Below are positions 7,086 through 21,066 of a DNA stretch of 64,000 bases, piece by piece; positions within the stretch are counted from its first letter, which is position 1; the number at the start of each line of letters is the position of its first letter. Origin of the DNA: Candidatus Parvarchaeota archaeon (GTDB taxonomy: Archaea; Nanobdellota; Nanobdellia; WJKC01). The DNA is taken from NCBI GenBank assembly GCA_017608505.1, contig JAFCFT010000003.1, positions 234 to 64,233 of the forward strand, in the 5' to 3' direction. A program made the position numbers and the translations under genes. Below the pieces are notes generated by a model. It did not search any database and was not told where the DNA came from. It worked only from the letters and a program-made list of their open reading frames with translations.

Positions 7086-7574
7086 ATGCCTAGAAAGGCT
7101 TCTGAAGAAGAGTACGAATTAGTGCCTGTGAGCCCTATTAAAAGGCTTGAAAGGGAAATTGAAGATTTAAAGAAAAAAAAGGTTGCTGAAATCCCTATAG
7201 AAAAACTTGGAGACAATATTGAAAAACTAAATGAGCAAGTAAGCAAATTAGTGACTGTAAATATTAATCTCCAAGCAAAAATAACTGAACTGCTGATAAA
7301 AAATGCTGAGTTAATAGAAGGAGTCACCGAAATGGTTGAACTATTAAAGAGGGCTTCAGAAGTTGAGGTAACGGCAGAAACAAAGCCAGAACAAAAAATA
7401 GACTTGTCTCCAGTAGTCAACGAATTAAAAAATATAAGCTCGCAAAATGCTCAAATACTTGAAGGCTTTAAAAGATTAAATGAATATATGCAAAAGACGT
7501 ATAGAAGAGGTATGCTTGAAAAGGTGCTTGAAGCGCCAAGTCAAAGAACCATGCCTGAAGGTGGAAAAATTTGA
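7086..7574 (+). CDS. Coiled-coil protein, first gene of the pilus locus
   Basis: 162 aa with heptad-rich sequence (LEREIEDLKKKK..., LNEQVSKLVTVNINLQAKITELL). Its stop overlaps the start of pilin 1. Confidence 0.5.
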   Translation: MPRKASEEEYELVPVSPIKRLEREIEDLKKKKVAEIPIEKLGDNIEKLNEQVSKLVTVNINLQAKITELLIKNAELIEGVTEMVELLKRASEVEVTAETKPEQKIDLSPVVNELKNISSQNAQILEGFKRLNEYMQKTYRRGMLEKVLEAPSQRTMPEGGKI

Positions 7575-8023
7575 ATAAAAAAGCAATTACTCCAGTCATT
7601 GCAGTTGTATTGTTGCTAATGATGACTGTGGCTGCAGCAGGAGCTGCTTTTTTTTGGATAACAACAATACAAAGCAGGATACAGGGGCAGATAGGAACGC
7701 AAACAACAGAATCAACAGGACAAGCAAGACAGTTTCAAATAATAAGTGCTGAATGCTCAAATGCGTCTCCAAACTTAATTAATGTAACAATCCAAAATGT
7801 TGGAAATTTGCAAATAGATGCTGGCACAACAGCAATTACAGTTACTGACAATTTAGGCCAAGTCATAGCAACAAACATATCGACAATGGAATCTGCATTA
7901 GAGAAAGGGGACATAACAACAATCAGATTTGCAACAGAAGCGCTTACAAGCGGAAAAACATACGGCTTAAAGATAACGCTTCCAGGCGGAGCAGAGCAGA
8001 CAACAGTATGCATTAGTAAGTAA
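7571..8023 (+). CDS. Archaeal type IV pilin-like protein 1 (class III signal peptide, Pilin_N-like)
   Basis: N-terminus (M)NKKAITPVIAVVLLLMMTVAAAGAAFFW: a basic leader followed by a hydrophobic helix. Several N-X-S/T sequons and two Cys. TTG start. Confidence 0.75.
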   Translation: MNKKAITPVIAVVLLLMMTVAAAGAAFFWITTIQSRIQGQIGTQTTESTGQARQFQIISAECSNASPNLINVTIQNVGNLQIDAGTTAITVTDNLGQVIATNISTMESALEKGDITTIRFATEALTSGKTYGLKITLPGGAEQTTVCISK

Positions 8024-8057: not shown

Positions 8058-8516
8058 ATGTTTAACAGGAAAGCAATTACTCCAGTCATTGCAGTTGTAT
8101 TGTTGCTAATGATGACTGTGGCTGCAGCAGGAGCTGCTTTTTTTTGGATGACCACAATTCAAAGCAGAATACAAGGGCAGATAGGAACTCAAGTTTCAGA
8201 AACAACGCTTACAACAACTACGACGTTAAACATAGTAAATGTAATATGCAATGCTTCTCCAGGAATGGTTAATATCACAATACAAAACACAGGAAGCAAC
8301 ACAATAGTGTCAGGAACAAGCGCACTAACAATAACAGACACGCAGGACAGAGTATTAAAAACAGCAACAACGACAAGCCCTTCATTTGCGCAAAACGAAA
8401 TAATAACAATAAATTACACAATTGGAGAAGGAGTAATAACTGCAGGAACAACATATGGAGTTAAAATAACGCTTCCAGGCGGAGCAGAGCAGACAACTGA
8501 CTGCATAGCGCAATAA
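8058..8516 (+). CDS. Archaeal type IV pilin-like protein 2 (paralog of pilin 1)
   Basis: MFNRKAITPVIAVVLLLMMTVAAAGAAFFW. The N-terminal 80 nt and C-terminal 32 nt are identical to pilin 1; the core differs. Confidence 0.75.
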   Translation: MFNRKAITPVIAVVLLLMMTVAAAGAAFFWMTTIQSRIQGQIGTQVSETTLTTTTTLNIVNVICNASPGMVNITIQNTGSNTIVSGTSALTITDTQDRVLKTATTTSPSFAQNEIITINYTIGEGVITAGTTYGVKITLPGGAEQTTDCIAQ

Positions 8517-8554: not shown

Positions 8555-9451
8555 ATGAAGGCGCAGTCAGCAATAATAAGCACAATACTATTATCAAGCA
8601 TTATCCTTTCCATTGTTACTGCAACTTTTATCTGGGGACAGCCATTGGTCCAAAAAACAACAGATAAAATTAAGATAGACACTTTAACTGAAATGTTAAA
8701 AACTATTAAAAATGGAATTGACAATGCTCAGCAGACTGGAAGCCCGTCTCAAGTGCAATTAGACATTTCTGGCGCAACAGTGATTATAAAACCAGATGAC
8801 AATGCGATAGCTGTAAAAACAAAGACTACAATACCAATAATAACATCGTATACTTTTGTTCCATTAAGTTATACTGAATTGCCGTTTGAAAATGAATTAA
8901 TAGATATTAACACTTCGCATATTAACAGCACTCCTGTTTTTACGCCTGAAGACTATGTTGCTGGAACAGACATACGCTTTGGAAATGTTACATTAGAAAA
9001 CGAAATTTACAATGTCACTACTTTTTATACAGGGGCAAGTTATGACGTTGCTTGCTTTTATCAAGGACAGTACGCAACGCAGGATGAATGCGTAGACGAG
9101 GGCCAAGATTTTGTTAAAAATGACACAACATACACCCTCTCATGGATAAGCTCAGATGGAACTGAAGTAATACTTATAGGCCCTGAAGTGGAAAATTTAG
9201 GAGTGCTTGGCACAGACCCAGGAGGCATAATAATAGGAAAAAGCCTGCCTATAAGCGGCGTGCAAAATGTTGAATTAAGACTTGCATATAGGGGATTGAT
9301 TGACGCCTCTGGAAGAGTAACAAAAACAGTGCTTCAATGCACAAGAGGCTGCAGGACTGGCGAAGGAAGGAAAAAATTAAAAATTTCGTTAGACAGGGTT
9401 GAGAGAACGGAAAACGCAACATACTTTTACGTGAACCTGCAATTTGAATAG
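8555..9451 (+). CDS. Pilin-like protein (298 aa) with class III signal-like N-terminus
   Basis: MKAQSAIISTILLSSIILSIVTATFIWGQP, followed by a beta-rich region with many sequons. Confidence 0.6.
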   Translation: MKAQSAIISTILLSSIILSIVTATFIWGQPLVQKTTDKIKIDTLTEMLKTIKNGIDNAQQTGSPSQVQLDISGATVIIKPDDNAIAVKTKTTIPIITSYTFVPLSYTELPFENELIDINTSHINSTPVFTPEDYVAGTDIRFGNVTLENEIYNVTTFYTGASYDVACFYQGQYATQDECVDEGQDFVKNDTTYTLSWISSDGTEVILIGPEVENLGVLGTDPGGIIIGKSLPISGVQNVELRLAYRGLIDASGRVTKTVLQCTRGCRTGEGRKKLKISLDRVERTENATYFYVNLQFE

Positions 9452-9502: not shown

Positions 9503-12500
9503 ATGGTCAATATTTATAAAAGACTTTCAAAAAGGCTTAAAGAAGCAAAGGAGAAATTGCTGGAAGAAGAATTAAAAGCTCCTGAAAAGCCGGCTGCGCC
9601 TGAAATTAAAGAGCTTCCAAGACCTATCTCACTTAAAAAACCTCCTGAATTGATTGAGGCTCCTAAAGTTCCTGAGATTCCAAAAATTCCTAAAATAGAG
9701 CCTAAGAAAGTTGTTGCTAAAGCGCCTGAAGCTCCAAAATTAATAGTCCCCCCGCAGCAAGTGATAGTGCAAGCGCCTGTAGTCAAGCCAGAAATAGTTA
9801 AAGAGGCTGCGATGGAAGTTCCAGAAGGGCTTGAAACTGGAAGAGCATTTAAAATGAAATACAAGCCAATAAGCATGGAAATACCAGAAGAATTTACTGA
9901 AGCGGCTGGCAAAGGGTTGGAAGCAAAAAAAGAAGTATACATGAAAAAATTAAGAAAAATTGATGAAAAAGTGCCATTAATAACCTTAAAGACAAAAGGC
10001 AAAGAAGTAGTAGTCTCGTGGGCAAACATAAAATGGAATCCTGCATCAAGAAGTCTCATATATTATGTTTACGAACCGAAATTAAATGACAAATTAAGGA
10101 CAACGCTTGACGAAGCAAAAACCCTTCTAAGGCAAAAACTAGACATAGACTTTACTAAGATAAGAATTGAAAAAGCATACGAGTACTTAATGAGCAAATT
10201 TGATGCAGTGCTTAATGAAATGGGCGCAAAAATAACTCCTAAAGAAAAAATCATACTTAATTATTATGTCTTCAGGGATTTTATAGGGCTTGGAAAAATA
10301 GAGCCTTTGCTTCATGACAAAAATTTGGAAGATATTCACTGCGACGGCGCAGGAGTGCCGTTATTTGTAACGCACAGAAATCCATTGTATGGAGAAATGC
10401 AGACAAACATCATATTCAAGACAAAAGAAGAGCTTGACTCATTTGTTTTAAGGCTTGCGCAAAAATGCGGAAAAGCGTTAAGCATTGCAGAGCCTTTGCT
10501 TGACGGAGCCCTTCCAGACGGGTCCAGGGTGCAGATAACATATGGAACAGATATTGCAATGAGAGGCTCGAATTTTACAATTCGTAAATTCACTGAAAAG
10601 CCAATAACCCCAATTGATGAATTAAATTACGGCACAGCAAGCCCAGAAATCCTTGCTTATCTTTGGATGGCTGTGGAGTCAGGCCTTTCAATGCTTATTG
10701 CTGGGGCAACTGCTACTGGAAAAACGAGCTTCTTAAACGCTTTAAGCATGTTCATTAACCCTGAACTGAAAATAATAAGCATAGAAGACAGTGTTGCAGG
10801 AGACACGCCTTTTGTTTTTTTAAACAGCAACAAATACAGGCAGGAAACAATAGGGAATTATATAGATACTGTAATGAATAAACATGGATTTGAAAAACTA
10901 AGCAGCGGACACCACATATGCCCTAATTATGAGAATATCAAAGTACCCACAATAGATTTCAACAACAAACTTACATTCTTGCCAGTAAATGCCTTGATAA
11001 GGCACAAAGTAAACAAAAAAGGATACGAAATTATAACAAAAACAGGGAAAACAATTAAGGTAACCGAAGATCACTCACTATATATCCTGGGTCCAGATAT
11101 TGAAAAAATGAGTCCTAAAAGATTTGTTAAAGAAATTGCGCAGGGAAACAAACAAAAAGCGCAAATTAATGAAGATATTGCGTTTTTAACAGGGTTAACT
11201 GTAACTCACGGGGTGGTGGACAAAAATAAAAATGTGTATTATCCAAAAATCAAAAAATTAGAAAACATCTTGAATAAATTAGGATTTAAATATAAAATTA
11301 GAAAATACCATATAAGAATTTCAAGAAAAGAATTCTATGATTACTTAGTAAGTCTTGGCATAAACTTAAACTCAAAATGGATTAATGAAAGAACGCCTAA
11401 ATGGGTTGTGTCTTTAGAAGGCGCACACTTAAGAAATTTCATTCTTGGGTACAGACTAGGCAACAAAAAAAAGGTATATTATATAAAACCAAAATTATGC
11501 AAAGCAAAGGCGAGCAAGTTAAGAAAAGGCGATTGCATAATTTCTGCAAAAACGCTTGAAAAAGATTACAAAGGATTGGAGTGCATTAACTTAGACTTAA
11601 AGAACTTTGGCAAAAGAGCAAAAATAATAGACGGCAAAGTCAAAGTTGGATCATACGCTATGCCATGCAAAGTAAAACTTGATAAAGACCTGCTTGAATT
11701 TATTGGATTATGGATTGCTGACGGTTGTTATGATGAACGCGGCAAATATGTAATAATCAGCGCGCCAAAACCAGAAACTGAAAATGTGGTAAAAAGAATC
11801 TGTGAAAAATTCAAGTTTAAATATAAAAAGCATTCAGACGGTGTTTCCCTCAACATATATGGGAGCATATTTTATTATTTTTTGAAAAACGAGCTTAAAT
11901 TGACCCATTATGCGCATCATAAAACAATGCCTCAATGGGTAAATAAATTATCAAACAAACAGTTAGCAGCATTATTAAGAGGATATTTTGCAGGCGATAA
12001 TAATGACGGAAAATACGAAATGGGTTGTGCAAGCGTATCAAAGAAACTTATAGAAGATATCCAACACTTGTTGTTAAGATTTGGCATAAGATCAACTATA
12101 AGAGAAAAAAAGCAGATATATAATTTAAGTATATCAGAAATTAATAATATAAAAAAGCTAGAAAAAATAGGATTTATACGCAAAGACAGACTAAAAAGAT
12201 TTAAAGAGATAACAAGCAGAAATAAGCAAGATCATGACTGTTCAGATATAATAGACCTTCCAGAAAACTTTTTAATAGCCATATTTGATGAAGCTAAAGA
12301 TACATGGAAATCATTAAAACAGAGATATAAAAAGAAAAAAATTGGAAGAGCATTTCTTAAACAGATAGTAAAGTCTCTTAAAGGAGAAACAAAAGAGTTA
12401 TTGAAAAGCATAATAGACGCTGACTTGTACTTTGAGAAAATCAAAAAGATAAATAAGATTAGATTAAATGAATATGTATATGATTTCTCAGTACAACCTG

Positions 12501-14512
12501 TTCAAAGATTTTGCACTAAAAATGGAATCCTGTGTTCAAATACGCCAGAGCTTAGATTGCCTCACCCTAACTGGATTCCTGAAGTAGCAAGGGCAGGATT
12601 TGGCGTGAAAAGATATGGCGAAGTTACGATGTTTGATTTGCTTAAAAGCGCTTTAAGACAAAGACCTAACTACGTTATAGTAGGCGAAGTGCGTGGCAAA
12701 GAAGCATACGTCATGTTCCAAGGGATGGCATCAGTACTTGGATGCGAAAAAATTTTTGTAAGCGATACTGAAGGAAATCCAACAATAATGCCTATTAAAG
12801 AATTGGGCAAATACGCATTTAAGAATTGGAAAGCAGTCACATTAAATCCAGGACACGAAGCAAAATTACTGCCAGTAAAAGCATGGGCAAGGCATGGAAA
12901 AAGAACTAAAATGATAAAAATTGAAACACACACAGGAAGAGAAGTCATTGTAACGCCAGAACACTCTTTATTCACGTATGATAAAAAACAAGGAATATTT
13001 CCAATAGAAGCAAACAATTTAACGCAAGGGAGCATAATATTAGTGCCTTCGAAAATTCCTTGCAATTACAAAAACATTGAATATTTTGATTTAACAAATT
13101 TAAAAGGAATTAGAGTATTAGCGCCGGAATTAATTAAAAAAGCTGTCCAAAAAATTGGATTTAAAAAAGCTTGCGAGATTTGTTGCGTTAAGTCGATAAA
13201 TGATTATTACTCAAAAAATGCATGTTCAGCGCTTCACTCAGACAAATTCAAAAAATTAATGGATGCGTCAAAAATAGACTATTCTAATGAAGAATTTATG
13301 GTGCGCTTTGATAGAAAAAGTGAAACATTCCCAAATAAATTAAAGATAAGCAATGAATTGTTGCGTTTGATAGGATACTACTTAAGTGAAGGCACGCTTA
13401 ACACGGCTAATAAAAATAATTCAATTGCGTTATATAATTCTGATAAAAAAGTTCTTAGAGATATGAAACAATGCATTAAAAAAGTCACTGGAAAGACTCC
13501 TAAAGAAAGATTAACAAAAGGTTGGGGCAAGACGCTTGAACTAAGATTCAATCACAAAGTATTATACGAATTTTTAAAACAATTATGCGGTCTTGGAAGT
13601 TCAAATAAAAAAATTCCAGAATTTGTATTTGGATTAAGCAAAGAAAAAATAGGACAGGTGTTGGCAGGAATGTACGCAGGAGATAGCAATTTTAGTGCAA
13701 AAGCAATTACATATTACACTAAATCAAAAGAACTTGCAAATACTTTACTTTATGCCCTGCTTTGCTTAGAAATTGTTGGCAGAGTAAGATCTCACAAAGG
13801 AATCTATGAAATAAAAATATACAGAAGCGATTTCAGAAAAAAACTAAGCGAGTATGTTAAACCAGTAAATAAGAAATATGTATTCAAAAAAGCAAGATAT
13901 TTAAAAAACATAATAGGCGACGTTTACTTAGATAAAGTGAAGAATATTACTGAAATAAGACTAAAAAGCCCATTAAATGTTTATGATATATCAGTGCCGC
14001 CGACTGAAAATTTTGTAGGCGGATTTGGAGGAATAATGCTCCATAACACAGGCCATCCAAGCTTCGGCACCCTTCATGCAGACAGCGTAGCTACAGTCAT
14101 AGACAGACTGACTACAGAACCAATAAATCTTCCTAAAGCAATGCTTGAAAATCTTGATTTAATTGTATTCCTGATTTTAACAAAGAGAAAAGGCGAGTAC
14201 GTAAGAAGGGTCAACGAAATAGTAGAAATTTTAGGGTATGACCCTAAAACAAGAAACTTAATTACAAACAGAGCGTTTAGATGGGACCCTGAAGAAGACA
14301 AATTTGTTTTGCTTAAAAGCGTGCTTCTTGATAAAATAAGAGAAAAACTTGGATACACAATCGAGGAGCTAAAATTAGACATGCTTAGAAGAATCAAACT
14401 GTTAAAATGGCTTCAAAAACACAAAATCACGGATTACAAAGAAGTTGCCCGTTATTTCAAAATGTATTACACAAGTCCTGAAAAGGTCGATAAGCTTGTG
14501 AGGAGAGCTTAA
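9503..14512 (+). CDS. Type II/IV secretion (FlaI/PilB/TadA/KlbA-type) ATPase precursor containing two inteins
   Basis: Extein motifs: Walker A GATATGKTS, Asp box IISIED|TPELRL, Walker B RPNYVIVGEVRG, His box FQGMA|TGHPSFGTLHADS. 1669 aa in total; the predicted spliced product is 646 aa. Confidence 0.9.
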   Translation: MVNIYKRLSKRLKEAKEKLLEEELKAPEKPAAPEIKELPRPISLKKPPELIEAPKVPEIPKIPKIEPKKVVAKAPEAPKLIVPPQQVIVQAPVVKPEIVKEAAMEVPEGLETGRAFKMKYKPISMEIPEEFTEAAGKGLEAKKEVYMKKLRKIDEKVPLITLKTKGKEVVVSWANIKWNPASRSLIYYVYEPKLNDKLRTTLDEAKTLLRQKLDIDFTKIRIEKAYEYLMSKFDAVLNEMGAKITPKEKIILNYYVFRDFIGLGKIEPLLHDKNLEDIHCDGAGVPLFVTHRNPLYGEMQTNIIFKTKEELDSFVLRLAQKCGKALSIAEPLLDGALPDGSRVQITYGTDIAMRGSNFTIRKFTEKPITPIDELNYGTASPEILAYLWMAVESGLSMLIAGATATGKTSFLNALSMFINPELKIISIEDSVAGDTPFVFLNSNKYRQETIGNYIDTVMNKHGFEKLSSGHHICPNYENIKVPTIDFNNKLTFLPVNALIRHKVNKKGYEIITKTGKTIKVTEDHSLYILGPDIEKMSPKRFVKEIAQGNKQKAQINEDIAFLTGLTVTHGVVDKNKNVYYPKIKKLENILNKLGFKYKIRKYHIRISRKEFYDYLVSLGINLNSKWINERTPKWVVSLEGAHLRNFILGYRLGNKKKVYYIKPKLCKAKASKLRKGDCIISAKTLEKDYKGLECINLDLKNFGKRAKIIDGKVKVGSYAMPCKVKLDKDLLEFIGLWIADGCYDERGKYVIISAPKPETENVVKRICEKFKFKYKKHSDGVSLNIYGSIFYYFLKNELKLTHYAHHKTMPQWVNKLSNKQLAALLRGYFAGDNNDGKYEMGCASVSKKLIEDIQHLLLRFGIRSTIREKKQIYNLSISEINNIKKLEKIGFIRKDRLKRFKEITSRNKQDHDCSDIIDLPENFLIAIFDEAKDTWKSLKQRYKKKKIGRAFLKQIVKSLKGETKELLKSIIDADLYFEKIKKINKIRLNEYVYDFSVQPVQRFCTKNGILCSNTPELRLPHPNWIPEVARAGFGVKRYGEVTMFDLLKSALRQRPNYVIVGEVRGKEAYVMFQGMASVLGCEKIFVSDTEGNPTIMPIKELGKYAFKNWKAVTLNPGHEAKLLPVKAWARHGKRTKMIKIETHTGREVIVTPEHSLFTYDKKQGIFPIEANNLTQGSIILVPSKIPCNYKNIEYFDLTNLKGIRVLAPELIKKAVQKIGFKKACEICCVKSINDYYSKNACSALHSDKFKKLMDASKIDYSNEEFMVRFDRKSETFPNKLKISNELLRLIGYYLSEGTLNTANKNNSIALYNSDKKVLRDMKQCIKKVTGKTPKERLTKGWGKTLELRFNHKVLYEFLKQLCGLGSSNKKIPEFVFGLSKEKIGQVLAGMYAGDSNFSAKAITYYTKSKELANTLLYALLCLEIVGRVRSHKGIYEIKIYRSDFRKKLSEYVKPVNKKYVFKKARYLKNIIGDVYLDKVKNITEIRLKSPLNVYDISVPPTENFVGGFGGIMLHNTGHPSFGTLHADSVATVIDRLTTEPINLPKAMLENLDLIVFLILTKRKGEYVRRVNEIVEILGYDPKTRNLITNRAFRWDPEEDKFVLLKSVLLDKIREKLGYTIEELKLDMLRRIKLLKWLQKHKITDYKEVARYFKMYYTSPEKVDKLVRRA
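10790..12541 (+). mobile_element. Intein 1 (584 aa) with LAGLIDADG homing endonuclease, inserted in the Asp box
   Basis: Block A SVAGDTPFVF (Ser1), block B KVTEDHSLYI. LAGLIDADG motifs LLEFIGLWIADGCYDE and LAALLRGYFAGDNNDG. C-terminal YVYDFSV...NGILCSN|T (Thr+1). Confidence 0.85.
12731..14047 (+). mobile_element. Intein 2 (439 aa) with LAGLIDADG homing endonuclease, inserted in the His box
   Basis: Block A SVLGCEKIFV (Ser1), block B VIVTPEHSLFT. Motifs LLRLIGYYLSEGTLN and IGQVLAGMYAGDSNF. C-terminal VYDISVP...GGIMLHN|T. Confidence 0.85.
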
Positions 14513-15376
14513 ATGAACTTTGGAGAATTCAGCTACAAACTTGTTCATAAAATTGCAAGAAAATACAGCCACTTATTTAAAGACATAGCAGAAGACCTTC
14601 AAGTCAGCAACATGCCTTACTCCATAGAAGAGTACTTTGCAATGATGATAGTCACGATTATTTTTTCAATGCCCTTAATAGGAATTATAGCATTTCTTTT
14701 TTACTTGCTAATTAATGACTTGCTTATTTCAATTATTGCAGGAGTAGTGTTTTACTCCATAATTTTAGTAGGAATAATTGCGCTTTATTATGTATACCCT
14801 TCGCAAGTCGCAAGCAGCAGAAGAAAAAAAATAGACAATGCGCTTCATTTTGCAACAATATATATGCAGACCCTTGCAGGAACAGGAGCGCCCCCGCACA
14901 TAATATTTAAAATACTGGGCTCTTTTGAAGAGTTTAGCGAGATATCTGAAGTTTCAAGAAAAATAAACAGAGACATTGAAATTTTTGGCATGGACCCTGT
15001 TGAAGCAATAAACAGAGCTGCAGAAAGAACGCCAAGCAACAATTTAAGAGAACTTCTTTACGGAATGAGAAGCACAATAACAAGCGGCGGCGACTTAAAA
15101 AGATACTTGGAAGAAAAAGCAAACGCATTTGTAAATAACTTTAGAAGAAAACTTGAAGAATACACTAAAGTGCTTGCTGTTTTCATGGAAATATATATTA
15201 CAATGGTCATTGTAGGAAGCGTTTTAGCATTAGTGCTTACAACTATAATGTCCTTAATCAGCGGAGGAATTTTAGGAATAGAACAACTGCAAATATTAAT
15301 CGTTACAGTAGGCCTGCCAATCCTTTCAGGCATATTCATATTGTTGATAAAATCTGTAAGCCCAACAGAGGTGTAA
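14513..15376 (+). CDS. Pilus platform membrane protein, single T2SSF domain (TadB/FlaJ N-half-like)
   Basis: IDNALHFATIYMQTLAGTGAPP...MDPVEAINRAAERTPSNNLRELLYGMRSTITSGGDL, flanked by TM helices. ATG follows the ATPase stop directly. Confidence 0.8.
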   Translation: MNFGEFSYKLVHKIARKYSHLFKDIAEDLQVSNMPYSIEEYFAMMIVTIIFSMPLIGIIAFLFYLLINDLLISIIAGVVFYSIILVGIIALYYVYPSQVASSRRKKIDNALHFATIYMQTLAGTGAPPHIIFKILGSFEEFSEISEVSRKINRDIEIFGMDPVEAINRAAERTPSNNLRELLYGMRSTITSGGDLKRYLEEKANAFVNNFRRKLEEYTKVLAVFMEIYITMVIVGSVLALVLTTIMSLISGGILGIEQLQILIVTVGLPILSGIFILLIKSVSPTEV

Positions 15377-15379
15377 AAT

Positions 15380-16498
15380 TTGGAAAAAAAAGATACATTG
15401 ATAATTGTATGGTCTGGAGTTATTGCAGTTGCGCAATTAGTGATTGGGTTATTCTTAACTAACTTTGAGTTAATATACGTAGGTTATTTCGGGGTTGCTG
15501 CATTAATGATAATTATATTTCCATATTCACTGATAGTTTATTTAAGGGTGCGCAAAGCAAAAATGATGGAAGAATACTTTCCTTCTTTTTTAAGAGACAT
15601 TGCTGAAGCAAAAAGAGCAGGAATGACAATTCCAAATGCAATTGCGCTTAGCGCGCAGACAGATTACGGTCCACTAACAAAAGAAATCAAGAGGATGAAC
15701 AACTTGCTTTCATGGGGCGTTCCGTTTCCAGAAACAATCAAATTGCTGCAAAAAAGAGTAAAATACAGCACATACATAAAAAGAGGCCTTGCAATACTTC
15801 TTGAATCATATTACACAGGGGGAAGGATTGAAGACGCAATGGATGCTGTAGCAGAAAGCACGCGGCTTCTTAAAGAAGTGGAAAAAGACAGAGAGTCTGT
15901 TCTTCAACAGCAGTTGATAATTGTATATTTAATTCATTTCATATTTGTCGGAATACTGGTCGCATTGTACAAAATATTAATACCGCTTTTGACATTTCAA
16001 GGAGGAGGAAGTGCTAGTCTAATCACAAGCTTTGGAGGAGGGCAGTCACCCCCTCTTGATTTTTACAAATTGTTGTTTTTTCTTACAATGACAATACAAT
16101 CTTTCAGCAACGGGCTGGTTGCGGGCGTTACAAAGGAAGGAAGTCTTGCAGCAGGAACAAAACATGCAGGAATAATGATTAGCACAGCATTGCTTGCATT
16201 TGCAATATTCATATTTCCAAAAACATACGCAATCAATGTTATGAGCTCTAAAACAGAAGTCACTACAAATGAACTAGTGGAATTCTTCGGATCAGTGACC
16301 CTTGAGAATGAACCAATATCAAATGTTGAAGTGACTGTGAATTTTGGAGGTGTTGCTGACTCCACTTACACGGACGAGTATGGAGACTTTAGCATAAAAA
16401 TTAGAGCTCCAACAGTTGAAGGCAATTACATTGCTAGGGTGAGCTCCACATATGAAGGTTTTGAAGCGGTTGTTGACATCCCAATTGTTGTCAGATAA
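15380..16498 (+). CDS. Pilus platform membrane protein, single T2SSF domain (TadC/FlaJ C-half-like) with C-terminal beta-sandwich
   Basis: FPSFLRDIAEAKRAGMTIPNAI...WGVPFPETIKLL...LLESYYTGGRIEDAM plus TM helices. The C-terminal VEVTVNFGGVADSTYTDEYGDFSIKIRAPTVEGNYIARV looks CarboxypepD_reg-like. TTG start 3 nt after the previous stop. Confidence 0.75.
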   Translation: MEKKDTLIIVWSGVIAVAQLVIGLFLTNFELIYVGYFGVAALMIIIFPYSLIVYLRVRKAKMMEEYFPSFLRDIAEAKRAGMTIPNAIALSAQTDYGPLTKEIKRMNNLLSWGVPFPETIKLLQKRVKYSTYIKRGLAILLESYYTGGRIEDAMDAVAESTRLLKEVEKDRESVLQQQLIIVYLIHFIFVGILVALYKILIPLLTFQGGGSASLITSFGGGQSPPLDFYKLLFFLTMTIQSFSNGLVAGVTKEGSLAAGTKHAGIMISTALLAFAIFIFPKTYAINVMSSKTEVTTNELVEFFGSVTLENEPISNVEVTVNFGGVADSTYTDEYGDFSIKIRAPTVEGNYIARVSSTYEGFEAVVDIPIVVR

Positions 16499-17252: not shown

Positions 17253-18253
17253 GCTTTGTAAAAACTTTGGAAGCAATTCTTGCAGCAATAATAATGATGT
17301 CAATGTACGGCATAATTAATGATTTCATAACAAAGCAGGTAGGAGCTTATCAGCGCGACCCGACATTTTTAATGAATGATTTTATTGAGATGCTTGCAAA
17401 AAACAATTTGATAAATGATGCAATAAATAATTATGAGTATTCAGAAATGGACGCGCTTTTTTACGAATATTTCTTAAAATCCATATATTATTACTTTGAA
17501 CCAAGATATTATGAACGTATCAAAGTCAAAAGCGAGATTAACAAAACATATCCAAACATTAGCTTTGTATATCACTTTCCATTTGGCATTGATGAAAACT
17601 CAGTAAGGGTGACTGGTAACGAATACGAATTGCCAACAAAAGCGCTTTTTAATTGGTACGCAACACCAATTGTCTTCTTAGAAGATATCAACAATTCATA
17701 TGTAGAAGTTAATATAACAATTGAAGCGTCTGGAATAGATAATAAGACATTAATGTATTTTGTAAATGACAAACGTTCAATATTGGATGTTCATAAATGG
17801 ACAAAAGTAGACCAAGACATGTACAATGCAACGCTTGTATTGTTTGTGCCAGAAGTGAAAAAGAATGTCTTAACATATGTCTATGCTGCGCAAAATGACA
17901 GCATGATTAATTTCACATATCCTTCTCTTAACAAAAATTTAGATATCCAATATTACCAGCTAAACACTTTTAAAACTACAACCGGTCTTGTTGTGTTCAC
18001 GCCTGAAAATGTAAGCTCAACAAGAGATGACACATACTATATTGAATACACCCTTTACTCTCATCAAGATGATAATTATGCAGACATAAAAATCGTAAAC
18101 AATACAGGAATTACAATAATCCCTGAACTTGATTATGTAAAGCACGGAAGCAGCCCTGCATATGCGACAACAAAAGGAGAATACTCTGTAAAAAGACTTT
18201 TCCCTAAAAAAGGAGGATTTGTTGAATTAACTGTTTATGGAGGATACTCATGA
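17237..18253 (+). CDS. Pilin-like protein (338 aa)
   Basis: MVDRLGFVKTLEAILAAIIMMSMYGII has a G|F...E pattern followed by a hydrophobic helix. Many sequons. Overlaps both neighbours. Confidence 0.5.
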   Translation: MVDRLGFVKTLEAILAAIIMMSMYGIINDFITKQVGAYQRDPTFLMNDFIEMLAKNNLINDAINNYEYSEMDALFYEYFLKSIYYYFEPRYYERIKVKSEINKTYPNISFVYHFPFGIDENSVRVTGNEYELPTKALFNWYATPIVFLEDINNSYVEVNITIEASGIDNKTLMYFVNDKRSILDVHKWTKVDQDMYNATLVLFVPEVKKNVLTYVYAAQNDSMINFTYPSLNKNLDIQYYQLNTFKTTTGLVVFTPENVSSTRDDTYYIEYTLYSHQDDNYADIKIVNNTGITIIPELDYVKHGSSPAYATTKGEYSVKRLFPKKGGFVELTVYGGYS

Positions 18254-21066
18254 AAAAAGCGCAGTTTTTCATTGGAACAATAGTGCTTGTTGCATTATCA
18301 ACATCAATAATTGCAGGCAGCTTGACAATACCAGAACAATTAAAATACAACAGCTTTGAAACTGATTTAAATGACTACAATAATATAATATTTGTTAAGA
18401 ATTCAATTAAGGACTTGTTTAACAATTATTTTACAGACTACTGGATGCTTCCTTATGACTACAGAACAACAATCAAAGTATACAACAATTTTACATTAAA
18501 AGGAAATCTGATAAAAGTTCAATTAGACTTGCCCAATGACATTCATGAAGAGTCGTTAATATTAATTGACAGCGATGGAGATATAGTCCCCTTTGGCATT
18601 GAATGGACAGATGTATCAGAAAAACAAGGCGCATTATACTTTCAGTCGTCTCTTAATTCAATGGATAACGAAAACTATTATTTATACTACAATGATGTTT
18701 CAAACTCAAATAAAGATAATAAATACAAAGAGCAAATGGTAATATACAACAGCTCTTCCGAATACATTGACATTAGAACAGGACTTTACAGTCTAAGACT
18801 AAACAAAAGTCTTGGGGGCGCACTTACAAATCTTAACATTTCTGGAAAAGGGAATGTGCTAAACATTTTAGAAGCAAGGCTTAACTGCTCAGGAACAATA
18901 TATAGCTTGTCTAACAGCAGTAATCAAGAATACGCTATTAATGATTACAATTACTTTTTAGAAGTCGCAATCACAGGCTCAAGATTCACAAACACAAGCT
19001 ACAAAATAAAAGAATATTTCTTTCCAGATAGAATAATAATTAAAGACTTTTTAACTGTTGGAGCAGATTCGCCATGCAGCTCTTGGGAATTTTTTGTTGA
19101 TGCAAAAAAAGATGATCTGCCAAATTACATAGACTCAAAAGAAAATTCTTATGCGCCTGTGCCTGTCATGGACCAAAACGGGCTTGACATGGGGGACTGG
19201 GCAGAATTCTATGGTGACAATTATGCCCTTGGCGTGTTAATAAGCAATAGTTCTCCATACAATTATCTTTCAAGCACAAGCAGCGAGAACATACTTTTGC
19301 TTAGAGCGCACAACGCGTCTCTTTTAAGCAAAGGAGCTTATAACAACACAATTACTATTATTCCAATGCATAATGACTCAATTAAAAATAATCATTTGAA
19401 TTATGAAGTTAATGCGCTCACTTCAAACGATGACTTATTTAATGAAAAACAAGAATTGCTTAATATCCTTAAAAGATACTTTACGCAAGCAAACACATAC
19501 GTAACAGTTACTGTTGACAACGCTCGCTCTATAGAACAGTACAATAACAGATCTAATTGGTACAGCAACTTAACGATGCGCTCCAGCATCAGAGCATTTG
19601 GACCTAATTTCAAGACGCCCCTTGTCATATCTGCAAGATTTCTTAAAGGTTTTGAACCAAGCTCGGTCGTACTAGTTGGCAGTGAAGGACCGCTAATTTC
19701 TCAACTTTCAACAGACAATTATATGAACAATTCATTTAGCCCTCTTCTTAACAACTCTTTAGTAAATAACACGATTCTTGTCCTTAACTTGGATGGGCGC
19801 GACTTTAATGTGAGTATTAACAAACAAGTTGCTGGCCCATTAAGTGCTTATGCATATTATCCGAATGGGACTTTAATCAATTATTATGACATTAACACAG
19901 ATTTTTACAACATAGAATTTAAAGATATAAAGCAGTCTGGATTTTACAACATATCATTTAATGGCACTGATGCTTTATTCTTTGCAAACTCCTCGCTTCC
20001 AAAAATGGTCATAGGACTGCCAGCACAAGTCCATGCTGAGGAATTAATTTTGCCTGTAAATGAGACTACAAATAATATTTCCATTTCAATAGAAGCATTT
20101 AATAACAATGCTAGACTCATTGACTTCTTAAATAACACAGTAGCATCAGACAACGGAAGCACACTAAGCCTTAATGCTGATGTCGTAAAATGTCTTGACG
20201 GATGCTATTATAAACTGTTGCTTGAAAATGCAAGCCCTGCTTTTATTAGCTCATCACTTAATTATGCTTGCGCAAATGCGCTGTCTTGCATTAATCCTGA
20301 TGAACCAAGAGTAGACATAGTAAGTTATGGCCTAACAAGCGAGTCAGGCGCGGATATGCACTATTACTACAATGTGGATACATACTCAACAAATTACAGC
20401 AAAAATACAGACTTAAAGTACAGCTTAAAAGACTATGAAGTCAACAACTCTTATTTTAGCTTTGATTTAGACGACTTAAAATTCATTGTTAACAACACTG
20501 ACTGGAGTCTTGGCTGGACAACCTGCGACCCAGAATGCACAAATGGATTTAACAAAATCAAATTTTTAGAAACTGGTCCAGCACGCGTTGTGTTGTGGGC
20601 AAACGCAAGCCCTTATACAAAATACTATTTTTTCTTTTATTACAATGCTTCATTATTTGATGTTTTTATAGACTCAAGTCGCGAAGTGACTTTTGGACCA
20701 GACTTTAAAGTCGGGGGCAGCGACACTTTGTATTATGATTACTTGGGGTCTGGCTCATTAAGCGAAGGCAATACAGACAATTACATTAACAGAGTGCTGC
20801 TTAAAGGAGTAAACAATTACATTAGAAGAAAAAGCTTAAACAATTCATTTTCTGTTGTCTTTAAGCCGCGCGATTTATCATACAACAACTCTATCTTAGT
20901 CAATGACTCCACAGTGCGCTTTAAAGTTTACAAACCAGGGTTTTTTAGATTTTTAATTGATGTTGACCCAAATAACTATTTATATGACTTAAAGCAAAGA
21001 GAATGGATGTTCTCATTGCATTACAACATAACAGGCCTTACATACACTTTAAGCGAACATTCATAA
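18250..21066 (+). CDS. Large pilin-like/secreted Asn-Tyr-Ser-rich protein (938 aa), putative pilus-associated adhesin
   Basis: MKKAQFFIGTIVLVALSTSIIAGS N-terminus. More than 30 N-X-S/T sequons by eye. ATGA overlap with the upstream gene. Last gene of the co-directional locus. Confidence 0.6.
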   Translation: MKKAQFFIGTIVLVALSTSIIAGSLTIPEQLKYNSFETDLNDYNNIIFVKNSIKDLFNNYFTDYWMLPYDYRTTIKVYNNFTLKGNLIKVQLDLPNDIHEESLILIDSDGDIVPFGIEWTDVSEKQGALYFQSSLNSMDNENYYLYYNDVSNSNKDNKYKEQMVIYNSSSEYIDIRTGLYSLRLNKSLGGALTNLNISGKGNVLNILEARLNCSGTIYSLSNSSNQEYAINDYNYFLEVAITGSRFTNTSYKIKEYFFPDRIIIKDFLTVGADSPCSSWEFFVDAKKDDLPNYIDSKENSYAPVPVMDQNGLDMGDWAEFYGDNYALGVLISNSSPYNYLSSTSSENILLLRAHNASLLSKGAYNNTITIIPMHNDSIKNNHLNYEVNALTSNDDLFNEKQELLNILKRYFTQANTYVTVTVDNARSIEQYNNRSNWYSNLTMRSSIRAFGPNFKTPLVISARFLKGFEPSSVVLVGSEGPLISQLSTDNYMNNSFSPLLNNSLVNNTILVLNLDGRDFNVSINKQVAGPLSAYAYYPNGTLINYYDINTDFYNIEFKDIKQSGFYNISFNGTDALFFANSSLPKMVIGLPAQVHAEELILPVNETTNNISISIEAFNNNARLIDFLNNTVASDNGSTLSLNADVVKCLDGCYYKLLLENASPAFISSSLNYACANALSCINPDEPRVDIVSYGLTSESGADMHYYYNVDTYSTNYSKNTDLKYSLKDYEVNNSYFSFDLDDLKFIVNNTDWSLGWTTCDPECTNGFNKIKFLETGPARVVLWANASPYTKYYFFFYYNASLFDVFIDSSREVTFGPDFKVGGSDTLYYDYLGSGSLSEGNTDNYINRVLLKGVNNYIRRKSLNNSFSVVFKPRDLSYNNSILVNDSTVRFKVYKPGFFRFLIDVDPNNYLYDLKQREWMFSLHYNITGLTYTLSEHS

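What the first reader, a model, noticed from the sequence alone, without database searches (positions are those of the whole stretch)
9503..14512. Pilus ATPase interrupted by two inteins in the Asp box and His box
The 1669-aa ORF contains the exteins of a FlaI/PilB/KlbA-type ATPase, with 1023 aa of insertions. IISIED|[584 aa]|TPELRL splits the Asp box and FQGMA|[439 aa]|TGHPSFGTLHA splits the His box. Removing 10790-12541 and 12731-14047 restores canonical IEDTPEL and AMxTGH motifs. Both inserts have Ser1, a TxxH block B, LAGLIDADG pairs, a terminal Asn and Thr+1. Pilus assembly would then depend on two protein-splicing events, which could act as a conditional switch. Inteins in KlbA-type ATPases are known, but I am not aware of a double-intein pilus ATPase with these two sites.
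Basis: partly seen in the sequence, partly recalled or inferred. Interest (0 to 1): 0.7.

Follow-up and report, generated by a model that had tools for sequence, protein, structure and literature searches.

The report
Two inteins in archaeal pilus ATPase
The motor ATPase gene of a type IV pilus locus in a small DPANN-type archaeon is interrupted by two unrelated self-splicing inteins, a real feature but an ordinary one, because the same two sites are occupied singly or together in many related environmental archaea.

Summary
ORF 9503..14512 (1669 aa) is a FlaI/GspE-type secretion ATPase carrying two in-frame inserts, 10790-12541 (584 aa) and 12731-14047 (439 aa). Both have Ser1, a TxxH block B, two LAGLIDADG motifs with intact acidic residues, a terminal Asn and Thr+1. 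Both pass Pfam's intein and LAGLIDADG thresholds. Removing them gives a 646-aa protein that aligns without gaps across both junctions to A. fulgidus GspE (E 1e-126). A syntenic sister genome has codon-precise empty sites.

The novelty claim does not hold. The Asp-box (IED|T) and His-box (GMA|T) positions are recurrent homing sites: I found 42 and 36 cluster representatives respectively. Six other representatives have both sites filled, and two of those carry three inteins. Novikova et al. 2016 already counted 21 inteins in archaeal VirB11-type ATPases. The classical KlbA intein sits 5 residues downstream of site 2 and belongs to a different mechanistic class.

Nothing supports a conditional switch. 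The patchy 0/1/2-intein distribution and the intact endonuclease motifs point to selfish homing elements.

One minor curiosity is that intein 1 contains a degenerate duplicate of half its own endonuclease, inserted into the Hint domain.

Verdict: a new member of a known kind, of low to moderate interest.

The parts
9503..14512 (+). Precursor ORF, 1669 aa: type IV pilus/FlaI-GspE-family assembly ATPase with two inteins
   Evidence: ORF; T2SSE, PilB3_C, Intein_splicing, LAGLIDADG_3
9503..10789 (+). N-extein, aa 1-429. It has a K/E/P-rich extension of about 130 aa, the N-terminal domain, Walker A GATATGKT (nt 10703-10726) and the first half of the Asp box, IISIED (nt 10772-10789).
10790..12541 (+). 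Intein 1, 584 aa, class-1 type with a LAGLIDADG endonuclease. Ser1; block B KVTEDH (nt 11057-11080); LAGLIDADG motifs at nt 11690-11731 and 11963-12004; block F at nt 12473-12496; block G NGILCSN (nt 12521-12541). The penultimate residue is Ser, not His.
11096..11464 (+). Extra segment inside intein 1 (intein aa ~103-225). It is a degenerate duplicate of the first LAGLIDADG half-domain and lacks catalytic acidic residues. It is inserted after block B. The displaced Hint strands follow at nt 11471-11551.
   Evidence: The AF2 model has low confidence here.
12542..12730 (+). Middle extein, 63 aa: second half of the Asp box (TPELRL), Walker B VIVGEVRGKEA (nt 12674-12706) and the first half of the His box, FQGMA
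12731..14047 (+). Intein 2, 439 aa, canonical class-1 intein with a LAGLIDADG endonuclease. Ser1; block B IVTPEH (nt 12947-12970); LAGLIDADG motifs at nt 13358-13399 and 13649-13690; block F at nt 13976-13999; block G GGIMLHN (nt 14027-14047).
14048..14512 (+). C-extein, aa 1516-1669 plus the stop codon: Thr+1, the rest of the His box (TGHPSFGTLHA) and the PilB3_C-like C-terminal domain
7571..8023 (+). Type IV pilin (class III signal peptide, NKKAITPVIAVVLLL...)
   Evidence: N-terminus; TIGR02537, 38 bits, cutoff 20
8058..8516 (+). Second type IV pilin paralogue
   Evidence: (TIGR02537, 36.8 bits)
8555..9451 (+). Pilin-like protein (MKAQSAIISTILL...), family unassigned
   Evidence: N-terminus only; weak DUF7289 hit. 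This assignment is inferred.
14513..15376 (+). Platform protein, N-terminal half of a split FlaJ/UpsF/TadB-C-type membrane protein (T2SSF)
15380..16498 (+). Platform protein, second half (T2SSF), with a CarboxypepD_reg-like C-terminus

Best explanation
The gene encodes the single assembly ATPase of an archaeal type IV pilus operon: pilins, then the ATPase, then a split FlaJ-type platform. The host is a low-GC DPANN (Nanoarchaeia/Woesearchaeota-like) archaeon.

Two unrelated selfish homing inteins have invaded the gene independently. Each combines a Hint splicing domain with a LAGLIDADG endonuclease. Intein 1 sits between IED and T of the Asp box. Intein 2 sits between GMA and TGH of the His box, 63 codons downstream.

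The 1669-aa precursor cannot be an active ATPase, because both catalytic motifs are split. Each intein is expected to excise itself by the standard class-1 pathway:
1. Ser1 N-O acyl shift.
2. Trans-esterification to Thr+1.
3. Cyclisation of the terminal Asn.
4. O-N shift.

The product is a 646-aa ATPase plus two free endonucleases. Those endonucleases can cut intein-free alleles at the same two sites and copy the inteins in.

Shown here: the anatomy, domain identities, restoration of a contiguous host protein, codon-precise empty sites in a sister genome, and recurrence of both sites in other lineages. Inferred: actual splicing, endonuclease activity, and the lack of any regulatory role.
For: - Intein identity: Pfam intein and LAGLIDADG hits are above cutoff for each insert. 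PDB sequence hits include PI-PkoII, the TFIIB and VMA inteins and PI-PfuI. The AF2 model of intein 1 matches PI-PkoII (E 7.5e-25, TM 0.62/0.66), the Tli VMA intein and PI-PfuI.
- Host restored: the spliced product aligns without gaps over both junctions to AfGspE 2OAP (E 1e-126) and FlaI 4II7 (E 1e-91).
- Intein-free relatives: the closest homologues are 630-660 aa and intein-free, up to 77% identical.
- Empty sites: the sister genome locus L001 is fully syntenic and has codon-precise empty sites at both junctions.
- Intein 2 family: allelic Ser1...HN/T inteins of about 435 aa occur in six close homologues.
- Intein 1 family: its relatives all sit at IED|S...HN|T in divergent archaeal T2SSE ATPases.
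- Independent origin: the two inteins are only 25% identical to each other.
- Family invariants: Ser1 in 42/42 and 36/36; terminal Asn in 42/42 and 36/36; +1 Thr in 42/42 at site 1 and Thr or Ser in 36/36 at site 2.
- Operon context: TIGR02537 pilins and two T2SSF genes.
- Foreign composition: the inteins are 31% GC against 38.6% for the exteins.
Against: No experiment shows splicing.

Intein 1 departs from its family in two ways that could slow or impair splicing. Its penultimate residue is Ser instead of His, found in only 2 of 42 allelic inteins. It also has a segment of about 120 aa inserted into the Hint N-lobe just after block B.

Endonuclease activity is inferred only from retained acidic residues.

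The taxonomic assignment rests on source names attached to homologues, not on marker-gene phylogeny.
Confidence: 0.85

Rival explanations
1. Regulatory, conditional protein splicing. One or both inteins have been domesticated as environmental sensors, so that pilus assembly switches on only when conditions (temperature, redox state, host contact) allow both splicing reactions.
For: Both catalytic motifs are split, so activity strictly requires splicing. Conditional splicing has precedents in other proteins: two differently responsive inteins in M. smegmatis DnaB (PMC6195587, abstract) and the RadA intein (PMC11409957, abstract). Intein 1 has unusual features, namely the penultimate Ser and the extra domain, which are shared with P0145 and could tune kinetics.
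Against: The inteins are not fixed. The nearest orthologues, including a syntenic sister genome, lack both, and alleles with 0, 1 and 2 inteins coexist across the clade. The LAGLIDADG acidic residues are retained in both inteins, as expected for mobile elements and not for domesticated ones. Both junction nucleophiles are Ser/Thr, so the known Cys-based redox traps do not apply. No sequence feature specific to sensing was found.
Confidence: 0.06
2. Decaying element or pseudogene. Intein 1, and possibly intein 2, no longer splices efficiently. The ATPase is then non-functional or nearly so, and the pilus locus is on its way to being lost.
For: Intein 1 lacks the penultimate His found in 40 of 42 allelic inteins. 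Its Hint domain is interrupted by a degenerate LAGLIDADG-like insert that AF2 cannot model confidently.
Against: The 5-kb reading frame is intact, although the inserts' composition predicts a stop about every 11 codons. All nucleophiles and the block B His are conserved. The same CSN ending and the same insert occur in P0145, which is only about 50% identical, so these features have persisted under selection rather than arising as recent damage. The penultimate His is dispensable in some characterised inteins (PMC2807308). The extein and all operon neighbours are intact and conserved relative to L001.
Confidence: 0.08
3. Artefact. The long ORF is an assembly chimera or a fusion of unrelated genes and not a single gene with inteins.
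For: None was found. The source is probably a metagenome-assembled contig, since the protein carries no name.
Against: The junctions are codon-precise relative to an independent genome. The identical protein is on record in two sources. Independent assemblies contain the same architecture, for example L002 with both inteins in the orthologous operon and P0143 and P0144.
Confidence: 0.01

Closest known systems
Allelic inteins in archaeal VirB11/FlaI/TadA-type (COG0630/COG4962) secretion ATPases. These are tallied by Novikova et al. 2016 (PMC4760082, Table 3: 21 in VirB11, 5 in CpaF) and are abundant in metagenomic DPANN, Diapherotrites and Nitrososphaerota proteins.
   Same: They share the host family and the same two insertion points: IED|S...HN|T and GM(A/S)|S...HN|(T/S)GH. 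They also share the Ser1 / Asn / Thr(Ser)+1 chemistry and the LAGLIDADG endonuclease. Double occupancy of both sites occurs in P0141, P0143, P0144 and P0157. P0142 and P0161 carry three inteins.
   Different: This combination of intein lineages is specific to this genome. Intein 1 is about 50% identical to its nearest relative (P0145) and 29-35% to the site-1 inteins of the other double-occupied genes. Its nearest extein relatives are intein-free. Intein 1 also has the extra degenerate LAGLIDADG half and a penultimate Ser.
Methanocaldococcus jannaschii / Pyrococcus KlbA inteins (PDB 2JMZ; class 2)
   Same: The host is an archaeal VirB11-superfamily ATPase, and the insertion is in the His box.
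   Different: The KlbA intein has Ala1 and Cys+1 and uses the class 2 mechanism (PMC2807308). It is a 168-aa mini-intein without an endonuclease. It is inserted at TGHDG|...|C(S)GTLH, 5 residues downstream of site 2. It does not appear among the sequence hits of either intein here.
PI-PkoII (Thermococcus kodakarensis Pol intein-2, PDB 2CW7), PI-PfuI and the Tli/Pho VMA inteins
   Same: They have the same overall architecture of Hint domain, linker or DNA-recognition region, and two-motif LAGLIDADG endonuclease. They are the best sequence and fold matches.
   Different: They sit in different host proteins (DNA polymerase, RNR, V-ATPase). Sequence identity is low (13-18% in the fold alignment). 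They have no duplicated LAGLIDADG half inside the Hint lobe.
Multi-intein archaeal genes such as haloarchaeal MCM (sites a-d; PMC10643990) and mycobacterial DnaB (two inteins; PMC6195587)
   Same: Several independent inteins are packed into the conserved motifs of a P-loop ATPase. Alleles with 0, 1 or 2 inteins coexist. The insertion sites lie close together (189 bp apart here).
   Different: The host here is a pilus motor ATPase, not a replication protein. No homing or splicing experiments exist for this system.
Archaeoglobus fulgidus GspE (PDB 2OAP) and Sulfolobus FlaI (PDB 4II7)
   Same: The spliced extein aligns over about 450 residues with these structures. Walker A, the Asp box, Walker B and the His box are all conserved.
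   Different: Those proteins have no inteins. This one has an extra K/E/P-rich N-terminal extension. It scores below the archaellum FlaI equivalog cutoff, tested on its intein-free orthologue P0001 (413 bits against 550).

Membership tests
Class 1 intein (Hint domain, standard four-step splicing) | [quoted passage not shown] | tested here: met
   Ser430 (intein 1) and Ser1077 (intein 2). Ser1 is found in 42/42 and 36/36 allelic inteins.
Class 1 intein (Hint domain, standard four-step splicing) | Block B TxxH motif | tested here: met
   KVTEDH (intein 1 aa 90-95) and IVTPEH (intein 2 aa 73-78)
Class 1 intein (Hint domain, standard four-step splicing) | C-terminal Asn followed by a Ser/Thr/Cys +1 extein nucleophile | tested here: met
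   ...CSN|T and ...LHN|T
Class 1 intein (Hint domain, standard four-step splicing) | Penultimate His in block G. This is usual but not obligatory. | tested here: inconclusive
   Intein 2 has His. Intein 1 has Ser, as do only 2 of 42 site-1 inteins (ours and P0145). The literature notes that some active inteins lack this His (PMC2807308).
Class 1 intein (Hint domain, standard four-step splicing) | Hint fold recognised by profile and by structure | tested here: met
   PF14890 scores 67.3 and 78.1 bits against a cutoff of 35.8. The intein 1 model matches 2CW7, 7QSS and 1DQ3 with probability 1.00. Intein 2 was tested by sequence only.
Class 1 intein (Hint domain, standard four-step splicing) | In-frame insertion in a conserved host motif, whose removal restores a contiguous host protein | tested here: met
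   Gap-free alignment to 2OAP and 4II7 across both junctions. Codon-precise empty sites in the syntenic genome L001.
Class 1 intein (Hint domain, standard four-step splicing) | Demonstrated autocatalytic protein splicing | not testable with these tools
   This requires expression followed by Western blot or mass spectrometry.
LAGLIDADG homing endonuclease (two-motif, monomeric) | Two LAGLIDADG motifs, each ending in a catalytic Asp or Glu | tested here: met
   Intein 1 has GLWIADG and GYFAGD. Intein 2 has GYYLSEG and GMYAGD. PF14528 scores 69.3 and 57.5 bits against a cutoff of 22.5.
LAGLIDADG homing endonuclease (two-motif, monomeric) | Site-specific cleavage of the intein-free allele | not testable with these tools
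   Candidate target sites are available from L001.
KlbA (class 2) inteins | Ala1, with no N-terminal nucleophile, and Cys+1 | tested here: not met
   Both inteins have Ser1 and Thr+1. The KlbA definition comes from PMC2807308.
KlbA (class 2) inteins | Insertion at the KlbA site, TGHDG|...|C.GTLH | tested here: not met
   The 2JMZ construct shows the KlbA site. Site 2 here is GMA|TGH, 5 residues upstream.
PilB/GspE/FlaI/VirB11 secretion-ATPase superfamily (Pfam T2SSE) | Walker A, Asp box, Walker B and His box in order, plus the N-terminal domain | tested here: met
   The motifs are GATATGKT; IED-TPEL; VIVGEVRGKEA; and GMA-TGHPSFGTLHA. PF00437 scores 73.9 bits against a cutoff of 24.9 even in the interrupted precursor. 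2OAP matches at E 1e-126.
Archaellum motor ATPase FlaI/ArlI (NCBIfam NF058587 equivalog) | Score above the equivalog cutoff, with archaellum genes (FlaH/ArlH, FlaG/F, archaellins) as neighbours | tested here: not met
   The intein-free orthologue P0001 scores 413 bits against a cutoff of 550. The neighbours are short pilins and a split platform protein, and no FlaH was detected.

The most novel reading that the evidence does not exclude
The least ordinary reading the evidence allows concerns intein 1's sub-lineage, which consists of this gene and P0145. It has kept, over about 50% sequence divergence, a catalytically dead duplicate of half its LAGLIDADG endonuclease wedged into the Hint domain after block B, together with a His-to-Ser change at the penultimate position. 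This could be a functional accessory module. One possibility is an added DNA-recognition domain that widens or changes homing-site choice. Another is a brake that makes splicing of the pilus ATPase slow or condition-dependent. In the second case, pilus assembly in this presumably host-attached DPANN cell would be gated by intein 1 while intein 2 splices constitutively.
Probability: 0.1. Interest if true: 0.55.

Novelty: new member of a known kind. Interest (0 to 1): 0.25.

Why it matters
As it stands, this is a clean, well-delimited example of something already understood: homing inteins pile up in the catalytic motifs of P-loop ATPases. It adds little conceptually.

Its modest value is threefold.

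1. With the related proteins recovered here, it shows that the archaeal type IV pilus/FlaI-type ATPase is an intein hotspot outside the replication machinery. There are at least eight insertion points and up to three inteins per gene, mostly in uncultivated DPANN and related archaea that earlier intein surveys barely sampled.
2. The locus comes with a syntenic intein-free sister allele and single-intein relatives. That makes it a ready-made natural system for testing co-homing and interference between inteins only 189 bp apart.
3. Annotation pipelines leave such 1.3-2.1 kaa 'ATPases' unnamed or mislabelled, so knowing the sites helps in calling pilus systems correctly in DPANN genomes.

Both inteins are Ser1/Thr+1 inteins from a low-GC lineage of unknown growth temperature, so they may interest people collecting orthogonal inteins.

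Tried and rejected
- **Source contig.** The look-up of encoding contigs for the exact precursor (P0121) returned nothing. Provenance therefore rests on the listing of cluster members (sources NCBI and JGI, contig of 70,341 bp, no name) and on homologue names.
- **Novikova supplements.** The supplementary tables of PMC4760082, which should list the VirB11 insertion sites, are not held. I could not check whether these exact two sites are in their catalogue.
- **Archaeal T4P census.** PMC4858521 does not mention inteins. Literature searches for inteins together with archaellum, type IV pili or DPANN terms found no description of multi-intein pilus ATPases.
- **Intein 1 model.** The AF2 model resolved the Hint and endonuclease cores but not the extra segment (pLDDT 28-60). 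The 'degenerate LAGLIDADG half' reading therefore rests on sequence only. The supporting hits are a self-alignment at E 5e-5, a sub-threshold PF14528 hit at E 0.054 and a sub-threshold PolC_DP2_central hit at E 7e-4. I treat the PolC_DP2_central hit as uninformative.
- **Duplication hypothesis.** I considered that the two inteins arose by duplication of one another. This is rejected: they are 25% identical over part of their length, and each has closer relatives at its own site.
- **Other inteins or ATPases nearby.** I searched the window for further inteins and for a second secretion ATPase. Neither exists there.
- **MAFFT placement.** MAFFT's placement of the intein 1 extra segment was ambiguous. 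The BLAST self-comparison and the comparison with P0145 were used instead.
Full report
**Observation**

The window contains a 5010-nt ORF, 9503..14512 on the + strand, encoding 1669 aa. Translating it and locating the quoted strings reproduces every number in the finding:
- IISIED ends at aa 429 (nt 10789).
- A 584-aa insert, SVAGDT...GILCSN, occupies aa 430-1013 (nt 10790-12541) and is followed by TPELRL.
- FQGMA ends at aa 1076 (nt 12730).
- A 439-aa insert, SVLGCE...GIMLHN, occupies aa 1077-1515 (nt 12731-14047) and is followed by TGHPSFGTLHA.
- The concatenated exteins total 646 aa.

The inserts are very A-rich (31% GC), so a stop codon is expected about every 11 codons. The chance of stop-free frames this long is about 1e-23 and 1e-17. 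The other two forward frames carry 44-66 stops each.

**Identity of the inserts**

Scanned on their own, each insert passes Pfam's curated thresholds. Intein_splicing (PF14890) scores 67 and 78 bits against a cutoff of 35.8. LAGLIDADG_3 (PF14528) scores 69 and 57 bits against a cutoff of 22.5.

The best solved relatives by sequence are PI-PkoII, the Mja/Mvu TFIIB mini-inteins, PI-PfuI, and the VMA and RadA inteins. An AlphaFold2 model of intein 1 has mean pLDDT 70.6. It is high in the Hint lobes and the endonuclease core. It matches PI-PkoII at E 7.5e-25 (TM 0.62/0.66), followed by the Tli VMA intein and PI-PfuI.

The catalytic inventory is:
- Intein 1: Ser1, block B KVTEDH, block F YVYDFSV, block G NGILCSN followed by Thr. 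The LAGLIDADG motifs are GLWIADG and GYFAGD.
- Intein 2: Ser1, IVTPEH, NVYDISVP, GGIMLHN followed by Thr. The LAGLIDADG motifs are GYYLSEG and GMYAGD.

All nucleophiles and both pairs of endonuclease acidic residues are present. The only departure is the penultimate Ser of intein 1.

**Identity of the host protein and locus**

The spliced 646-aa sequence aligns over about 450 residues to Archaeoglobus fulgidus GspE (2OAP, E 1.4e-126) and to Sulfolobus FlaI (4II7, E 1e-91). There is no gap at either junction. For example, kiisiedtpelrlphpnw aligns with kvvsiedtreiklyhenw, and fqgmatghpsfgtlha aligns with fqamstghasystlha. The precursor itself still scores T2SSE and PilB3_C.

Gene order around the ATPase:
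- Upstream: a thermosome gene, a coiled-coil protein, two short pilins beginning (N/R)KKAITPVIAVVLLL (TIGR02537, above cutoff), and a larger pilin-like protein.
- Downstream: a FlaJ/UpsF-type platform protein split into two T2SSF genes, followed by conserved membrane proteins.

The intein-free orthologue scores 413 bits on the archaellum FlaI equivalog, whose cutoff is 550, and no FlaH or other archaellum gene is nearby. This is therefore a generic archaeal type IV pilus system and not an archaellum. No second secretion ATPase and no other intein occur in the 64-kb window.

Source names on the closest homologues are Candidatus Nanoarchaeia, Nanoarchaeota and Woesearchaeota. These names, together with about 35% GC, point to a DPANN archaeon.

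**Are the junctions real homing sites?**

The 120 best extein homologues are mostly 560-660 aa and intein-free, with up to 77% identity (P0001). Six are about 1000-1110 aa, and all six carry one Ser1...HN/T intein of about 435 aa at exactly the GMA|TGH site.

Searching with intein 1 alone recovers inteins inside more distant T2SSE ATPases labelled TadA, from Diapherotrites and Nitrososphaerota. Every one is inserted at IED|S...HN|T(x)EL.

P0001 lies on a 727-kb contig of GCA_030615175.1. Its locus is gene-for-gene syntenic with the window: thermosome; genes of 170, 150, 151 and 300 aa; the ATPase; T2SSF genes of 287 and 372 aa; then genes of 266, 338 and 938 aa. Neighbour proteins are 61-83% identical. 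At the DNA level both sites are empty and codon-precise in that genome...ATTGAAGAC|ACGCCAGAA... and ...GGCATGGCT|ACTGGTCAT....

**Is double occupancy new?**

I ran an exhaustive HMMER search of 1.84 billion cluster representatives, using aa 424-1526 (intein 1, middle extein, intein 2) as the query. It returned 4438 hits, many of them very long ATPases.

Mapping inserts onto the extein, followed by junction pattern checks, shows inteins at exactly both sites in six further representatives:
- P0141 (1607 aa).
- P0143 (1455 aa).
- P0144 (1583 aa).
- P0157 (1263 aa), where site 2 holds a 169-aa mini-intein.
- P0142 (2011 aa), a triple-intein protein.
- P0161 (2140 aa), a triple-intein protein.

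A further 35 representatives have site 1 only and 29 have site 2 only. P0141 sits in the orthologous operon of another assembly (L002). The exteins of these double-intein proteins are 42-48% identical to ours. Their site-2 inteins are 22-54% identical to ours and their site-1 inteins 29-35%.

Across the family, insertions cluster at about eight extein positions:
- ~280
- ~341 (DG|SRV)
- ~358 (F|TIRKF)
- ~408 (P-loop, GK|T)
- 430 (Asp box)
- ~480 (Walker B)
- 493 (His box)
- ~497

Novikova et al. 2016 tabulate 21 inteins in archaeal VirB11 (COG0630) and 5 in CpaF. Turgeman-Grott et al. 2023 document that multi-intein genes are common in Thermococcales and Halobacteriales, although their two DPANN genomes had none. 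Double occupancy at these sites is therefore recurrent in public data, even though I found no paper that describes it explicitly.

**Relation to KlbA**

The classical KlbA inteins are class 2, with Ala1 and Cys+1. A KlbA-like intein in P0176 served as a probe against the PDB. It retrieved the M. jannaschii KlbA construct 2JMZ, whose sequence reads MNTGHDG|ALAYDE...AVS(N)|(C)SGTLH. The KlbA site is thus also in the His box, but 5 residues downstream of site 2. The inteins differ in mechanism class, size and sequence. Neither intein here belongs to the KlbA family.

**Mechanism and rivals**

The best-supported account is two independent selfish homing inteins, only 25% identical to each other. 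Each is expected to splice by the standard class-1 route. The outcome would be an active 646-aa motor ATPase plus two free endonucleases.

The 'conditional switch' proposal is not excluded, but it has no positive support:
- The inteins are absent from the nearest relatives.
- Alleles with 0, 1 and 2 inteins coexist.
- The endonuclease active sites are intact.
- The junction nucleophiles are Ser/Thr, not Cys.

A decay or pseudogene reading is possible for intein 1 because of its penultimate Ser and interrupted Hint lobe. It is disfavoured for two reasons. The frame is intact. The same two peculiarities also persist in P0145, which is only about 50% identical.

**A side finding in intein 1**

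At 584 aa, intein 1 is the second longest of the 42 site-1 inteins; the median is 504 aa. Intein aa ~103-225, directly after block B, has no counterpart in the other alleles.

When this segment is deleted in silico, the Hint/Intein_splicing match becomes one continuous stretch. The segment aligns to the intein's own first LAGLIDADG half, from motif 1 to motif 2 (23% identity over 111 aa, E 5e-5). It aligns more strongly to the equivalent, longer insert of P0145 (32% identity, E 2e-18). Its two motif positions read GLTVTHG and GYRLGN, so the catalytic acids are gone.

This looks like an old internal duplication of half the endonuclease, retained in one intein sub-lineage. Its fold could not be confirmed (pLDDT 28-60), and its function, if any, is unknown.

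**Verdict**

The claim of novelty and the suggested regulatory role are not supported. This is a new member of a known kind. It is useful mainly as a tidy natural system, with matching empty-site and single-intein alleles, for studying closely spaced inteins outside the replication machinery.

Noticed in passing
window 11096-11464 (intein 1 aa ~103-225); displaced Hint strands at 11471-11551: Intein 1 carries a catalytically dead, degenerate duplicate of its own first LAGLIDADG half-domain (motifs IAFLTGLTVTHG and LRNFILGYRLGN). It is inserted into the Hint N-lobe right after block B. P0145, which has a 746-aa intein at the same site and also ends ILCSN, has a longer version. The fold was not resolved by AF2.
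   Followed up: partly
related proteins P0142, P0161, P0165, P0147, P0148, P0150, P0164, P0176 and others: The archaeal FlaI/GspE-type ATPase family is an intein hotspot, with about 8 insertion points at extein positions ~280, ~341, ~358, ~408 (P-loop), 430, ~480 (Walker B), 493 and ~497. Some genes carry up to three inteins, giving proteins of 2011-2140 aa.
   Followed up: partly
P0158-P0160, P0164, P0182, P0190: Inteins inserted at the Walker B site (GEVR[GS]|S...HN|[ST]EA), 11 codons upstream of site 2, are 30-33% identical to intein 2 over its full length (E about 1e-70). This suggests an ancestral switch of homing site within one intein family.
   Followed up: partly
P0176 and PDB 2JMZ: An endonuclease-containing relative (about 566 aa) of the classical 168-aa KlbA mini-intein sits at the KlbA site (TGHDG...ISN|CMGTLHA), in an ATPase that also has a site-1 intein. 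The comparison also pinned down the KlbA insertion point relative to site 2.
   Followed up: partly
window 9503-9900 (ATPase aa 1-~130): The ATPase has a low-complexity N-terminal extension: K 17%, E 16% and P 16% over the first 130 aa. It is absent from the solved GspE and FlaI structures. The closest DPANN orthologues have similar total length and 100% query coverage. Its function is unknown.
   Followed up: no
window 8555-9451 and 18250-21066: Two further proteins begin with M(K)KAQ followed by a hydrophobic stretch (MKAQSAIISTILL..., MKKAQFFIGTIVLV...). This may be a class III (pilin-type) signal. One of them is 938 aa, and both are conserved in synteny in L001 and L002. They could be minor pilins or a pilus-tip adhesin. 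No family hit was found.
   Followed up: no
window 14513-16498: The FlaJ/UpsF-type platform protein is split into two adjacent genes of 287 and 372 aa. The second ends in a CarboxypepD_reg-like domain. The split is conserved in L001 and L002.
   Followed up: no
window 10790-12541 and 12731-14047, compared with the exteins: Both inteins are markedly lower in GC than the host gene. GC is 0.31 for both against 0.386 for the exteins. GC3 is 0.28 and 0.25 against 0.34. This fits a foreign origin or relaxed constraint.
   Followed up: partly
window 7086-7574: A 162-aa coiled-coil protein lies immediately upstream of the pilins, with only a weak LegC2/C7-like hit far below cutoff. It is conserved in position in L001 as a 170-aa gene.
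   Followed up: no
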